From assembly GCF_018977255.1 (NCBI RefSeq), contig NW_024704756.1, positions 13,826,001 to 13,890,000 of the forward strand: a stretch of DNA of 64,000 nucleotides, read 5' to 3'. Both the position numbers and the translations under genes were made by a program. Origin of the DNA: Callorhinchus milii. Its lineage: Eukaryota. The notes under the pieces are model-generated. The model did not search any database. It was not told the DNA's origin and saw only the letters and a program-made list of their open reading frames with translations. Shown in pieces: positions 20,905-30,748 of this stretch; the first letter of the stretch is position 1, and every line of letters starts with the position of its first letter.

Positions 20905-23286
20905 TTACATACCAATATAATTGGATCTGGTCACCAAGTGAAAACATAATGTTACAATCATGATGTTGATTCTATATGTCAGCTTCCCACTACTGCTGAA
21001 ACCACGAACGCAGTTAACCGATGGCCCTAGAGAGAAAATGCATCACTAAGTTTGGATATTTTAAATCTTTATAAATATTTGCCATATGTTTTTCATTACT
21101 TTTTCACTCACCCCTGGGTAAAGGAGGTGATTCCAAAGCCCGCCAGTAGACTGAGAGAAACTGTGCCACCGTTGCCCTGAAATATGAAATGAATTGTGTA
21201 TCATCAATTAATATTGTCAACCGTGATGTAATTTAGTAAGATCTGTAAATTTTACTTTATTTAAAAAAAAATGTATGGCCTCAATTTAATATGTATATGA
21301 CTTCTCAAATGAAATCAAGAAAAGATCATTTCTTGATTAACCCATAACTGCTCTATTTTCAAAGCATTAACAACCTACTCTAACTGTGGATTCTATTGCA
21401 CCCTCAATCTCTGGGCAGTTGATTTAGCACCTTTCAGCTGGTTGCTGCTCACCTGTTGGACTACACTGACCTAAATTATTAGGAGTTCCAAGTCCTTGAA
21501 GCCACAACCTTCTGATTCTGAGGCAAGAGTGCTAACAACTGAGGCAGACTGACACACCAAGGAGATCAACAAAAAATTGCAACATATTCAACCAACAACA
21601 ATTTGCATTTATATAGTGCTCTTCATTCCATCCCTATACTTCAATTTTTCAAGAGAATTTGACTTCAATACATACTCAAATGTAATAGAAGGAATACAAA
21701 GAGTTTCAGGTACTATCCATTCATATGTGCCATTGACAACGGCATTGGAGGCATGCGTGTGAGTAACAGCAGTTCCTTCTTTATTAAAGCACTAGGGGAA
21801 AAAAAAGATTTTTGAGTATATAAATATGTATGCACTGAAATATAGTGGGGGGAATCATTAAATCAAAACTATTATTTACCTTTAAAAGCTTGGAAAATTT
21901 AGGTGGATCCTTCCATCTTCCAAATGTTATTCGAGTGTTAGTCTTTCGAGCTTGTAACATAAATCCTCGGTATCTTCCTCCTATTATTGTAACTGAATAT
22001 AATGTTATGATTAAAATTCTGTTCTCTAAAGTATTTAAAATCTTTCCATACATATCTAATATAGTATTGTTTCATTAATGTATTGCTCTATTGAGCTATT
22101 CATAAACTACCTGTAGTGTTTTCAAAATAAGTAATCACATGAAATACTTAACCTGTTGAGCAGTTATTGTGTACATAATAGTTGATTAATGAATGTTCTT
22201 ATGAGTAAAAAAAAATCTCTAGCTGATTTTCCCCTTTAAATCTGAAGAGCTGCAGTTTGTTTAGCTTTTCCACAAAATGCATTACTCTACCACACCAGTT
22301 AACGTTTGCCAGAAAAGTCCAAAATATTAAATAATAATCCTGGCATCTGCCTGGACTATTCTGAAATGTTTCACAAAGAATTTCTTGACGTGTAATGACG
22401 GCTGTATTTGTAAGCAAACGAGGCACAATTTTTTAATTCAGCAAGATCCTATAGGCATTGATCATCATCATGAACAACAACAACAACAAAACTAGGTTTG
22501 TATAGCGCCTTTCACGTCAGGAGGAAGTCCCAAGGCGCTGGACAGTCAGTGCTTTGGACCCGGGATCGGGGAGAGTGAAGGGCAAGAGGGGGGAAGGAGG
22601 GTGATCAAAAGCACGGTCGAAGAGGAGGGTCTTGAGATGGGTCTTGAGGGTGGGGGTAGAGTGGCTGAAGGCCTGCCCGCCAATGCTGGGGTGGGCGAGG
22701 CGGAGGATGTGAAGCAGACCGGAGCCCGCCGAGCGGAGGGGGTGGGCGGGTTGGTAGGGGGTTAGGAGGTGGCAAGAGGTAAAGGGTGGTGTGTGGGGGG
22801 GGGGGGGGGGGGAAGGAGGCCATGAAGTGAAAGATCAATTGATCCAGACAACGGACTTCTCTTTTTAAATAGTGGCGCGGGATCTTTGCTGTCCGTCTGA
22901 GCCGACAGACTGACGCTATACACATGTCATTTGTTGTTGTTGTTGTTGTTGTCTATCTGGGGACTGTGAGCTTGAAGTGCCCCCCCACCCCACCCCCCAA
23001 AAAAAAAAAGGAGCTCGAAACCCACACACTTCTGCCCTGCCAGGCGGCTGTTGGAAGGAAAAGGTTTGACACCACAACGTATACCATTTACGGTCTTCCC
23101 GGGTATGTAGTGTTTGGCTTCGAATACCACGTCGTATATGCTCTTGTCGGACTGCGGCGGCCACGGGTGGCGAGGCTTCATCTTCTTACAGGCGGACAGA
23201 GGAGCCCCGGTCGCCAAACCGGCGGTCAGGCGGGCCATCTGCAGAATGGCAATGCAGCACAGCGTGAGGCAAAGGCAGACGGACAT
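20905..23286 (-). CDS. Reeler-domain-only secreted protein, copy B, 205 aa. Exons 23085-23286, 21880-21992, 21676-21791, 21112-21176, 20905-21026
   Basis: Signal peptide, then GAPLSACKKMKPRH...YRGFMLQAR...FGRW...C...AVTH...WIVP...FEATVAQ...VYW: the Reeler pattern of FRRS1/defense proteins. All GT-AG; 618 nt in frame. Confidence 0.88.
22472..22850 (-). mobile_element. L2-clade LINE 3' fragment in Reeler-B intron 1
   Basis: (AAC)n tail plus TATAGCGCCTTTCACGTCAGGAGGAAGTCCCAAGGCGCTGGACAG, the reverse complement of the L2 tail at 45130-45200. Confidence 0.75.
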
Positions 23287-23549
23287 TTTTTTTTTTTTTT
23301 TTGGTCGTTGAGAGAGGCGACGCCCCCCCCAAAAAAAAGGGTGGTGGGGTGAGTGAGTGAGTGAGTGAGTGGGTGAGTGGTGGGGGGGAAGGCACGCGCG
23401 CCCGCCACGGAAGAGCTCGAGGGGCGGGAGAGGACGCGCGGCTCTCGGCCGCAGCCGTTAAATTCAAAACCTGCGCGCGAGCACCGCGTTGACGCATGCG
23501 CAGGTGGACCTGCAGCGTGAGGAGGGATGGCCGGGTTTGAGGGGGGGGG

Positions 23550-28500: not shown

Positions 28501-30748
28501 TATTTTAGGATCTTATAATGGGCCTCATCAGTACTTGGGTGAAATCAGCCCGGCTCTAGGTTCCAGATCATAATTCAGCAAACCATGGGCATTGAATGAG
28601 ACTTTACCTACAAAATATACAGTCAATTCACTTTATAGTATATTCTGTGAAGCACTTAATGACGTCTCAATGAGAAGTCATATAGATGCCTCAATAAGGC
28701 ACACACAGAGACGCCTCAATAAGGCACTATATCAATTGCAAAAATTATTATTATTGGCTGAAAACAAAGGTTTTATGCGATATGAAATGAAATGAGTATA
28801 CTCAGCAAAACGTAGGAGCAAATGACCATTAGTAACACGAAAACTTTATCCCCAATGCATTGACAGAGTTCGGAAGATGTTTTGGTGCATAAATTCTAAA
28901 ATTCACTGTTGACTCTGTGGATTTAAATGCAGTACCTACATGAATCTAATGGAAGTAGAACAGAATGAATCCGGTGGGATCCATACATATGTGGTTGAAT
29001 TGCTCTTGGCATTGATGTTTGAGTGGGTAACTGCAGCCATCGGGTTTTCAGAACACTGAAAAAAAATCATATACGGTATTGGAATAAATACATGGGTGCT
29101 GATACAGAGAGAGAAAAAAAAACATTAAAAATAAGCAATGAATTACCTGTAACAATTTGGTGTTTTCATGTGGGTTCTGCCACGATCCGATTGGAGTGGG
29201 GTCTCCATCCCTTCGAGCTTCCAGCAAAACTCCTCGATAATGGGGTCCCAGTATTGCAACTAAAAACACAAAACTTATGATGGTCAATAGCTTTTACAAA
29301 CCTTACACACATGTCTAATGCAACTTTAACGTTTAATCTGCTGCTCTATTGGGCTATTCATAAACTACTTGCGCAATGCTGGCATAATAAATAGTCACAT
29401 GAAGAAACACATTGGGAATCTGTTGAGCAACTGCGTGTATAATAGTGGGATAATGAATGGTCATATGACAAATAGATACCACACATGTCACATTCTGTGT
29501 AGATTTAAAAAATGATTTATCTTCTATTTTCTTTTTTAAAAAAATAAAAAAACAAAGGGCAGCAGTTTTTTTTTACAACCACCATGGACTCTTTGAAGTC
29601 TCCCTCACAGCAAAGTCCACCGTGTAACAAATGCTGAGTTCCACCTCACACACTGAAATGTTCTATCGAATGGCTCTCGAAAAGTTCAGAGAATTAATAT
29701 GGATTGCAGATGCGAAAGTTGGCTGTGGGGAAGCACTTAATTGGTGAATGGAAAGATAACAGCAACACACCATAGCCTAAGCAACTGCAGAGAAAAAGAG
29801 AGGGAGAGAGAGCAACTTTCGAGACAAAGGAAACCAACCTGTCTATGGCAAAGAGAGCCTGTAGCTGCAACCATCATTTAAATTACTGGGAATCCTTGTC
29901 CTTATTTGATACCTTTTACATAATGCTTTCACATTCTGTGCTATATATGTCTACATACTATCTCTGACAATTTAGTTAAATCATCAACAGTGACAAACAT
30001 TCAATTTATGGAAATGAGATATAGGCAATTGGTAACAACAACTCTTGTTTCTACCGTCCAGGGGAAAAGGGCCTTTTGAAAGAATCAACAAAGATCTAAT
30101 TCTTTCGGGCAGCAAATATATTTTCATTGGCCTGAATGCAGTAATTTCTTCATCACACTATCACACATTAAATTTGACTGCTCTCTGGAAACGAACCATT
30201 ATTATCCTAGAGGTGAAAAATTCATTAATTCTTAGCCTAAAAGATTGATCCGTTTTAAAATTCAAGATCACACAATTATACTGTTAAAACCCTGCATTTT
30301 GATATAGTTTTATCTCGTCATCAAGGCATCTCAAAGCACTTCACAAGGTATACTGTAGAGCGATGTAACTGTGTATAATGTGGGGAATCGCAATAGTGTA
30401 ATTATGGAGGGATTTTAAATTCAGCCTTCATTTAAAAAGTGGATGTTTTACAGAAGACTGAAGCTGTTGCAGCGTTAATGTCGTTAGGTTTTACTGGGAA
30501 ATGAACAATTCTGTTGAACGAAATAACTACATACCTTGTACTGCCTTCCCAGGTTGGTAGACGCTTGTAGCAGTATCAATAGTGTAAGGTGCACGGCTAG
30601 ACTGTGGCACAACTCCGGAATGTATTGGCTTCATGCTCTTGCATGCTGACGTAGGGGCACCATTAGGAAAAGCAGTAATCAGACTGGGAAACTGCAGAAA
30701 CCAAATGCAGCACAGAGTTAACAAATTCCACCCAGCCATTTCTGACAT
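25525..30748 (-). CDS. Reeler-domain-only secreted, probably GPI-anchored protein, copy A, 198 aa. Exons 30535-30748, 29147-29259, 28940-29055, 25808-25872, 25525-25613
   Basis: Signal peptide, then FPNGAPTSACKSMKPIH...PQSSRAPY...YRGVLLEAR...IGSW...C...AVTHSN...WIPP...FMATVAQSREVYW, and hydrophobic C-terminus GIGNLIVTLFVSLLVT*. GT-AG introns; 597 nt in frame; AATAAA overlaps the stop. Alternative start at 30739. Confidence 0.9.
26490..28112 (+). mobile_element. CR1-clade LINE, 5'-truncated and degenerate, in Reeler-A intron 3
   Basis: ILNEYFASVFTKE, VPEDWRVAN, SLTSVAGKLLE, SQNGFVKGKSYLTNL, DFQKAFDKV, LEQRRLRGNLIEVFKI; CR1-type 3' end GGGCCGAAGGGCCT...ATTCTATGAT. Confidence 0.92.

What the first reader, a model, noticed from the sequence alone, without database searches (positions are those of the whole stretch)
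20905..30748. Tandem pair of stand-alone Reeler-domain genes inserted between NDUFA1 and AKAP14
Two complete 5-exon genes share identical internal exon sizes (113/116/65 nt) and phases. Each encodes a signal peptide, one Reeler domain and a hydrophobic tail, with no DOMON/cytochrome b561 (FRRS1), reelin repeats or spondin modules. Reeler-only proteins are known as immune-induced defense proteins in insects and are poorly characterised in vertebrates. I know of no such genes at human Xq24. They are candidate lineage-restricted surface or mucosal defense or matrix proteins; the function is inference.
Basis: partly seen in the sequence, partly recalled or inferred. Interest (0 to 1): 0.75.

Follow-up and report, generated by a model that had tools for sequence, protein, structure and literature searches.

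The report
Two Reeler genes in elephant shark
The elephant shark has two side-by-side genes for a small membrane-tethered Reeler-fold protein: one matches an unstudied fish gene labelled 'defense protein' that in zebrafish marks the yellow pigment cells, and the other is a fast-changing copy, so the pair points more to pigment-cell biology than to immunity.

Summary
Observation confirmed. The window is Callorhinchus milii. Two intact minus-strand 5-exon genes, A (23286-20905, 205 aa) and B (30748-25525, 198 aa), share 113/116/65-nt inner exons and phases and are 42% identical. Each has a signal peptide, one Reeler domain and a GPI-like tail. Both are already in NCBI/UniRef.

They are not lineage-restricted. 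B belongs to a shark-to-teleost family that includes zebrafish si:dkey-251i10.2. That gene is a strong xanthophore marker in three zebrafish single-cell tables, a link I did not find in any main text searched. This fits a pigment-cell surface or organelle protein better than mucosal defence; against it, a cichlid and a salmon 'hdd11' of unchecked orthology behave otherwise.

A is a tandem duplicate on a ninefold longer branch. It is more cationic and has a CpG-island first exon that B lacks.

'Inserted' is unproven; loss in mammals is likelier, but synteny was untested. No chimaera expression data were seen. Known family, new functional lead.

The parts
30535..30748 (-). Gene B exon 1 (214 nt from the first ATG; second in-frame ATG at 30739): signal peptide and start of the Reeler domain; CpG-poor (o/e 0.33)
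   Evidence: (Reeler profile 1-34)
29147..29259 (-). Gene B exon 2 (113 nt)
   Evidence: (profile 46-79)
28940..29055 (-). Gene B exon 3 (116 nt)
   Evidence: (profile 83-118)
25808..25872 (-). Gene B exon 4 (65 nt), last Reeler strands
25525..25613 (-). Gene B exon 5: spacer plus terminal hydrophobic tail (GPI-signal-like) and stop; AATAAA at 25426-25421
23085..23286 (-). Gene A exon 1 (202 nt): signal peptide and start of the Reeler domain; lies in a CpG island (GC 0.59, o/e 1.02)
21880..21992 (-). Gene A exon 2 (113 nt)
21676..21791 (-). Gene A exon 3 (116 nt)
21112..21176 (-). Gene A exon 4 (65 nt)
20905..21026 (-). Gene A exon 5: spacer, hydrophobic helix, 8 further residues, stop; ATTAAA at 20786-20781
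22401..23700 (.). CpG island over gene A's first exon and putative promoter, holding the palindrome CGCATGCG at 23493-23500 (NRF1-type core; motif identity recalled), 207 nt upstream of the ATG
   Evidence: the 8-mer occurs 3 times in 64 kb (18642 at the UPF3B/NDUFA1 promoter, 23493, and 54415 in the CpG island upstream of NKAP); 0.16 expected window-wide
23539..24449 (.). G-rich tandem array (period about 23, about 37 copies) directly upstream of gene A's CpG island
22075..22204 (-). Intron-1 block of gene A, 73% identical over 139 columns to 29333-29468 in intron 1 of gene B; flanks of other exons also align: trace of a genomic tandem duplication, possibly a conserved element
   Evidence: 3' 330 nt of intron 1: z 11.8 against 200 shuffles
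26600..28050 (+). Decayed LINE (reverse-transcriptase) remnant inside intron 3 of gene B, antisense to B; explains the 3067-nt intron (499 nt in A). Bounds approximate
   Evidence: RVT_1 E 0.0025, below the curated cut-off; CR1 type is recalled
18788..20241 (+). NDUFA1 (3 exons), convergent 3' neighbour of gene A
   Evidence: (Pfam MWFE)
35210..36255 (+). Unidentified two-exon 101-aa ORF between gene B and AKAP14; the NCBI model of gene B takes its first exon from the antisense of this ORF's exon 1 (35448-35278)
   Evidence: no Pfam hit
43036..43518 (+). AKAP14 exons (AKAP28 domain); NKAP follows on the minus strand (46961-47116 tested)

Best explanation
Gene B is the elephant-shark copy of an old jawed-fish gene (zebrafish si:dkey-251i10.2 / LOC562682; NCBI 'putative defense protein 3/Hdd11'). 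The protein enters the secretory pathway by its signal peptide, folds as one Reeler beta-sandwich, and is most likely cleaved and GPI-anchored at its C-terminal spacer, so it sits on the outer or luminal face of a membrane with no cytoplasmic part. In zebrafish it is made abundantly and selectively by xanthophores from 24 hpf to post-embryonic stages. The likeliest job is a non-enzymatic glycan- or matrix-binding tether of the yellow pigment cell lineage: cell surface to dermal matrix or neighbouring pigment cells, or the inside of its pigment organelle. Gene A is a tandem duplicate made in cartilaginous fishes that kept the fold and exon structure but changed about nine times faster, became more cationic and came under a CpG-island promoter, so it probably has another expression site or ligand. 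Shown: gene structure, fold, family, rate asymmetry, CpG contrast, zebrafish expression (published tables). Inferred: GPI anchoring, glycan/matrix binding, the same expression in the chimaera, and any role of A.
For: Family: 47 named relatives, all cartilaginous or ray-finned fishes, 51-66% identical to B apart from B itself. B + 4 sharks + 11 named bony fish + 2 unnamed proteins form one group at 95/93, and B + sharks 99/100. Fold: model of A pLDDT 88.8; top matches are F-spondin Reeler, Foldseek E 7.8e-9 and Z 11.0, rmsd 3.2, 122 aligned. Anchor: 39 of 48 proteins (A, B and 46 named relatives) pass a simple GPI-signal screen of my own; 4 of the 9 misses score 1.9 against a cut-off of 2.0, and 5 lack a hydrophobic end. 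Expression of the zebrafish gene: PMC6588384 supplement, xanthophore marker, 89% of cells, specificity 0.69, 20th of 30 rows by specificity, second-highest mean expression; PMC7886338 supplement, cluster 15 = xanthophores, 100% vs 4.6% of cells, logFC 3.48; PMC8517238 supplement, 24-hpf sheet, third row by logFC of the xanthophore cluster, 85% vs 17%. Goldfish 'putative defense protein 3': 0/23/9.5 FPKM in white/yellow/brown skin, listed with plin, dgat2, slc2a11 and gch1 (orthology unchecked). Duplicate: introns alignable; A groups with cartilaginous fishes 100/100, branch 2.42 vs 0.26; relative-rate test significant with 9 of 9 outgroups; CpG o/e 1.02 vs 0.33. Ligand class: crayfish single-Reeler protein binds LPS, PGN and zymosan (PMC10149183); heparin binding by F-spondin Reeler is recalled.
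Against: No expression data from C. milii or any shark were seen. I found no statement that chimaeras have xanthophores. Orthology to zebrafish rests on identity (52%) and a 141-column tree, not on synteny. A cichlid 'hdd11' is under-expressed in xanthophore-containing egg-spots (log2FC -2.19), and a salmon 'hdd11' falls 25-fold in louse-infected fin; neither orthology was checked. The gene was absent from the held supplements of 2 of the 5 zebrafish/Danio papers searched. Two of the three positive datasets are neural-crest-sorted, and the third file was cut at storage. NCBI's model of B has no signal peptide. The GPI call is a home-made screen; the 22-residue helix in A could be a plain membrane anchor. 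The position of A is loose: on the core domain alone no placement was rejected, and 'B + sharks without A' had p-AU 0.072.
Confidence: 0.5

Rival explanations
1. One reading: the proteins are innate-defence pattern binders of skin, gill or gut, like insect Noduler/Hdd11 and crustacean Reelers, that bind microbial polysaccharide and limit biofilm. The cationic, fast-evolving A would be a pathogen-driven duplicate.
For: Crayfish and shrimp single-Reeler proteins bind or inhibit bacteria. Salmon hdd11 drops 25-fold at louse sites. The zebrafish protein changes in a CuSO4 inflammation proteome. A has net charge +16 against +3 for B and evolves fast.
Against: The zebrafish relative is a xanthophore marker and is not a significant marker of any cluster in the whole-landscape sheet (one entry, p about 1). 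A similarly named goldfish gene is at 0 FPKM in white skin, which still has epidermis. No Reeler or defense protein is named in the main text of a shark skin-mucus proteome paper. The fish proteins keep a membrane tail, whereas the crayfish protein is 151 aa with a signal peptide and one domain only. Several teleost relatives have core pI 9.1-9.5, so A's pI 9.8 is not extreme.
Confidence: 0.2
2. The protein lines the inside of the xanthophore's pteridine organelle (pterinosome) as a membrane-tethered scaffold for its lamellae, as PMEL does in melanosomes, rather than acting at the cell surface.
For: Very high, early expression in step with gch2, aox5 and pteridine genes at 24 and 68-70 hpf, and second-highest mean among 30 xanthophore rows. 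Signal peptide plus anchor give luminal topology. A paper listed (title and abstract only) reports that chromatophore vesicles are lysosome-related organelles.
Against: No localisation data. No cytoplasmic tail to carry a sorting signal. No repeat or amyloid-like segment seen. GPI proteins usually reach the plasma membrane (established knowledge).
Confidence: 0.13
3. Gene A is a redundant duplicate under relaxed constraint on its way to loss; only B matters.
For: A differs at 14 of 53 columns that are at least 90% conserved in 33 other fishes, B at 3. Pairwise dN/dS is 0.47-0.67 with most of dN on A's branch, which by rough partition puts A's own ratio near 1 (inference).
Against: With dS about 0.9-1.2 between the copies, A still has an open frame, exact exon lengths, all splice sites, the core cysteines and a confident Reeler model, which long neutral drift would not preserve. 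It sits in a CpG island with an NRF1-type core.
Confidence: 0.12
4. The real gene B product is NCBI's model: a first exon at 35448-35278 spliced into exon 1 at 30694, giving a protein without a signal peptide. Alternatively B and A splice together into a longer product.
For: The NCBI model uses canonical GT-AG sites and starts at a CpG island. Phase-1 junctions would allow B-to-A chimeric splicing in frame.
Against: The in-exon ATG start aligns residue for residue with the signal peptides of Heterodontus and Heptranchias. The added 57 residues are the antisense of another ORF's exon, next to an N gap. Each gene has its own stop and a poly(A)-like signal within 120 nt.
Confidence: 0.05

Closest known systems
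Zebrafish si:dkey-251i10.2 (LOC562682, ENSDARG00000093957) and fish 'putative defense protein 3/Hdd11' family
   Same: Signal peptide + one Reeler domain + hydrophobic tail, about 195 aa; 52% identical to B; one tree group with B.
   Different: Cartilaginous fishes add a loop cysteine (6 of 6; a nearby one in 1 of 29 bony fish) and a tail cysteine. C. milii has the second, fast-evolving copy A. Synteny was not tested.
Insect Noduler/Hdd11/Reeler1 and crustacean PcReeler/LvReeler
   Same: Single Reeler domain with signal peptide; source of the automatic name; Atlas look-alikes at 0.91.
   Different: Described as secreted hemolymph or gill proteins induced by bacteria. The fish proteins carry a membrane tail and, in zebrafish, mark xanthophores. 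Orthology is not shown.
REELD1 (vertebrate Reeler-domain-containing 1)
   Same: N-terminal Reeler domain; the best Atlas look-alike of the zebrafish domain is a chordate 'RELD1 fragment' cluster (0.92).
   Different: REELD1 is about 500 aa with a long extension and lies on human 4q31 (recalled). It was not placed in a tree because no named sequence was at hand. A whole-genome-duplication paralogy with this locus is only a guess.
FRRS1/SDR2 ferric-chelate reductase
   Same: Reeler domain at the N-terminus; one family member is auto-named 'ferric-chelate reductase'.
   Different: No DOMON or cytochrome b561 match in A or B. Both genes end in a stop right after the tail, so there is no reductase activity.
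F-spondin (SPON1) and Reelin N-terminal domain
   Same: Same fold: best PDB matches.
   Different: 16-18% identity; no spondin, thrombospondin or reelin repeats.

Membership tests
Reeler domain (PF02014) | Pfam score above the gathering cut-off of 21 over the whole profile | tested here: met
   B 104.4 bits, A 88.4 bits, profile 1-130/131
Reeler domain (PF02014) | F-spondin-like beta-sandwich fold | tested here: met
   Model of A: top 8 Foldseek rows are F-spondin Reeler; Z 11.0, rmsd 3.2, 122 aligned. B was not modelled
Fish si:dkey-251i10.2 family (gene B) | Groups with the named fish members in a tree | tested here: met
   95/93 with A left out; 51-66% identity
Fish si:dkey-251i10.2 family (gene A) | Groups with the named fish members in a tree | tested here: inconclusive
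   Full length: cartilaginous side 100/100 but long branch; core-only AU tests reject nothing. Intron similarity ties A to B
Fish si:dkey-251i10.2 family | Conserved synteny with ndufa1/akap14/nkap in bony fish and sharks | not testable with these tools
   No vertebrate genome collection on hand
Fish si:dkey-251i10.2 family | Xanthophore expression of the chimaera genes | not testable with these tools
   Shown only for the zebrafish gene, in published tables
GPI-anchored proteins | Signal peptide, small-residue omega region, terminal hydrophobic stretch, no cytoplasmic tail | tested here: met
   Own screen, no trained predictor: A, B and 37 of 46 named relatives pass; hydropathy
GPI-anchored proteins | Release by PI-PLC | not testable with these tools
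   Needs an experiment
Insect Noduler/Hdd11 immune Reelers | Soluble secreted single domain without a membrane tail | tested here: not met
   Both have a terminal hydrophobic segment; the crayfish protein has signal peptide and domain only
Insect Noduler/Hdd11 immune Reelers | Induced by infection; binds microbes | not testable with these tools
   Only indirect fish data, of unchecked orthology
FRRS1 | DOMON and cytochrome b561 domains after the Reeler domain | tested here: not met
   Only Reeler matches; stop after exon 5
REELD1 | Long C-terminal extension after the Reeler domain (recalled) | tested here: not met
   198 and 205 aa in all
REELD1 | Phylogenetic grouping of the domain | not tested
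   No named REELD1 sequence was returned; long unnamed hits were left unused

The most novel reading that the evidence does not exclude
This 'defense protein' family is the dedicated structural membrane protein of the xanthophore, lining the pterinosome or tethering the cell, a counterpart of PMEL in melanophores. Its presence in chimaeras and sharks would date a xanthophore-type programme to the common ancestor of jawed vertebrates, and its absence from the mammalian NDUFA1-AKAP14 interval would mark the loss of xanthophores. The elephant-shark duplicate A was redeployed under a CpG-island/NRF1-type promoter, for example to the germ line, and evolved under positive selection.
Probability: 0.15. 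Interest if true: 0.75.

Novelty: new member of a known kind. Interest (0 to 1): 0.42.

Why it matters
Xanthophores lack a characterised surface or organelle-matrix protein of their own (recalled), and it is unclear how far cartilaginous fishes share this cell type. A gene that ranks among the strongest zebrafish xanthophore markers, appears by name in the main text of only 1 paper in the library, and has a conserved relative in chimaera and sharks gives a direct handle: a zebrafish knockout and an in situ probe for shark skin. It also warns against reading the automatic name 'putative defense protein' in fish transcriptomes as immune evidence. The fast duplicate is a compact case of asymmetric divergence with a promoter change in a slowly evolving genome.

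Tried and rejected
Single-protein search of solved structures found nothing useful; the profile reached F-spondin only at E 0.006-0.007. Cluster-member look-ups for both public proteins could not be made, so whether mRNA-derived records exist is unknown. The exon-1 searches for A and B returned only the C. milii proteins themselves (1 of 15 and 1 of 13 candidates), which is weak evidence of absence. Among proteins up to 300 aa, only A itself and three weak distant hits scored higher to A than to B.

Trees on the core domain could not place A. In one search the careful search did not finish, and 51 of 146 unnamed hits were kept. Maximum-likelihood dN/dS was unstable (dS 9.2) and YN00 failed, so only counting estimates are used. 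A cysteine-count script used faulty windows and was discarded; the counts come from the alignment. E-box/M-box/Sox motif scans near the starts showed nothing telling. 3' UTR and upstream regions of A and B do not align above chance (z 1.0). The first Pfam scans of the SOWAH-like ORF were in the wrong frame and were redone. The Atlas could not read the 101-aa ORF.

Literature: no paper holds both 'xanthophore' and 'reeler'; 3 hold 'xanthophore' and 'defense protein'; 12 mention REELD1, none about its function by title or abstract. No complex prediction was run. Unnamed hits longer than 300 aa, which could include FRRS1 or REELD1 of any mammal, were left unused, so the relation to those genes is open. 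bioRxiv supplements and figures (for example the frog figure showing DFP1) could not be seen and may bear on the expression claim.

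
Full report
Observation. The two genes are real and lie where stated. Splicing by coordinate gives gene B (exons 30748-30535, 29259-29147, 29055-28940, 25872-25808, 25613-25525; 198 aa) and gene A (23286-23085, 21992-21880, 21791-21676, 21176-21112, 21026-20905; 205 aa). All 8 introns are GT-AG, the inner exons are 113/116/65 nt and the phases are 1,0,2,1 in both. The proteins are 42% identical (E 7e-47) and no third copy was found in the window. Five of ten single exons match Pfam Reeler in collinear order. 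A search with B exon 1 returned an NCBI protein of Callorhinchus milii, 'putative defense protein 3', 100% identical, and A exon 1 returned UniRef A0A4W3J253 of the same species. These public models use my junctions and score 104 and 88 bits on Reeler with no other family. Both public models lose the signal peptide: A's starts at Met17, and B's takes a first exon from 35448-35278, the antisense of another ORF beside an N gap. The in-exon starts align with shark signal peptides, so I prefer them.

Neighbourhood. Pfam supports an ankyrin gene (SOWAH-like, name recalled), UPF3, NDUFA1, AKAP14 and NKAP in that order. This is the order I recall for human Xq24, where I recall no Reeler gene. A ends about 660 nt from the NDUFA1 stop.

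Family. A search with B's domain gave 49 hits among 97 candidates: B itself, 4 sharks (65-66%), 42 ray-finned fish records (51-59%) and 2 unnamed; no tetrapod was named, but this word-based search is not sensitive enough to show absence. The zebrafish hit is LOC562682 = si:dkey-251i10.2. With A left out, B, the sharks, 11 named bony fish and 2 unnamed proteins form one group (95/93) apart from 10 other unnamed stand-alone Reelers. A wider search counted 1706 relatives at E up to 0.001, and the Atlas shows chordate, mollusc and arthropod clusters of this architecture. Stand-alone Reelers are therefore common, and B is not lineage-restricted.

Anatomy. Both proteins have a hydrophobic N-terminus and a hydrophobic C-terminus with at most 8 residues after it. 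My simple screen for a GPI signal passes 39 of 48 proteins; no trained predictor was available. The model of A has pLDDT 88.8, ten strands and a terminal helix, and matches the F-spondin Reeler domain best (Foldseek E 7.8e-9; Z 11.0, rmsd 3.2, 122 aligned). No catalytic domain is present. All 6 cartilaginous-fish rows have an extra loop cysteine, and 5 of 6 a tail cysteine, which suggests a second disulfide (inference).

Expression lead. I read supplement rows of three zebrafish single-cell papers. PMC6588384 lists si:dkey-251i10.2 among 30 xanthophore markers (89% of cells, specificity 0.69, second-highest mean; passages). PMC7886338 gives 100% vs 4.6% in 68-70 hpf cluster 15, which its text names as xanthophores; it also appears weakly in a 48-50 hpf cluster whose identity I did not check. 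PMC8517238 has it third in the 24-hpf xanthophore cluster and non-significant in its landscape sheet; that file was cut at storage. Held supplements of PMC10495112 and PMC8416024 did not contain it. In goldfish (PMC9854719, table section) a 'putative defense protein 3' is at 0/23/9.5 FPKM in white/yellow/brown skin. A tree-frog paper (PMC11640764, passages) lists 'DFP1' among chromatophore featured genes, but the figure was not visible. Against: cichlid 'hdd11' is lower in egg-spots (PMC5012078, passages and table), salmon 'hdd11' falls 25-fold with sea lice (PMC7177938, passages), and the zebrafish protein shifts in a copper-inflammation proteome (PMC7271515, passage). Orthology of the goldfish, frog, cichlid and salmon genes was not checked. 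Passages of PMC10149183 and PMC12113285 show bacterial or polysaccharide binding by crustacean Reelers. PMC10707392 (main text search) names no Reeler protein in shark mucus, and PMC11266302 (passages) did not state that rays have xanthophores. Searches found no paper that studies this fish family; subscription papers are largely outside the library.

The duplicate. Intron flanks of A and B align about as well as the exons (62-69% in exons; 67% over the last 330 nt of intron 1, z 11.8), which shows genomic tandem duplication. On full-length proteins A falls on the cartilaginous side (100/100) with branch 2.42 against 0.26 for B. Whether A is sister to B (p-AU 0.15), to the sharks (91/85) or outside both (p-AU 0.072) is unresolved, and core-only trees reject nothing. 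Relative-rate counts are 35-54 A-only against 4-16 B-only changes with 9 of 9 outgroups. A departs from 14 of 53 strongly conserved columns, B from 3. Pairwise dN is 0.55-0.59 and dS 0.88-1.17, so A's own ratio may be near 1; relaxed and positive selection cannot be told apart, but the intact frame argues that A is still used. A's first exon and upstream region are a CpG island (o/e 1.0-1.1) while B's are depleted (0.33). The palindrome CGCATGCG occurs only at the UPF3B/NDUFA1 promoter, upstream of NKAP and 207 nt before A's start (0.16 expected in the window). I read this as a housekeeping- or germline-type promoter for A (inference; the NRF1 label is recalled).

Mechanism and verdict. Most likely B is a GPI-tethered, non-enzymatic binding module of the xanthophore lineage and A a diverged duplicate with different regulation (0.5). 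Immune defence (0.2), a pterinosome scaffold (0.13), a decaying A (0.12) and the signal-less NCBI model (0.05) are the rivals. The genes are annotated members of a known architecture, so this is a new member of a known kind. The value lies in the pigment-cell link and the asymmetric duplicate. Nothing here shows expression or function in the chimaera itself.

Noticed in passing
window 35210-35384 and 36125-36255 (+): Two-exon 101-aa ORF starting with a Gly2-Cys3 (myristoyl/palmitoyl-type) N-terminus, no Pfam hit; the Atlas could not read it. I recall similar uncharacterised teleost proteins, unchecked.
   Followed up: partly
window 35278-35448 (-) and 30694: NCBI's gene B model joins the antisense of that exon to an internal acceptor in B exon 1, removing the signal peptide: a likely annotation error or a minor read-through from a bidirectional CpG island.
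   Followed up: partly
window 23539-24449: G-rich minisatellite (period about 23, about 37 copies) abutting gene A's promoter; could form G-quadruplexes or have helped create the CpG island.
   Followed up: no
window 24301-24900: Second CpG island between genes B and A, upstream of the minisatellite, with no gene assigned.
   Followed up: no
window 22075-22204 and 29333-29468: Intron-1 block 73% identical between A and B, higher than their exons; candidate shared enhancer.
   Followed up: partly
window 20300-20420: The 3' ends of NDUFA1 (+) and gene A (-) may overlap: poly(A)-like signals at 20335 and 20410 (+) and at 20373 (-).
   Followed up: no
window 17974-18335: 5-mer-based tandem array in UPF3B intron 1, next to the bidirectional UPF3B/NDUFA1 promoter.
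   Followed up: no
window 11940-12600 (-): UPF3B exon with a long Arg/Glu/Tyr-rich repeat, read by eye.
   Followed up: no
window-wide, e.g. 11000-11321, 41012-41637, 49424-49743: Many copies of an approximately 320-nt SINE-like repeat, 80-94% identical.
   Followed up: no
window 57201-58100: CpG island upstream of the NKAP promoter region with no gene identified.
   Followed up: no
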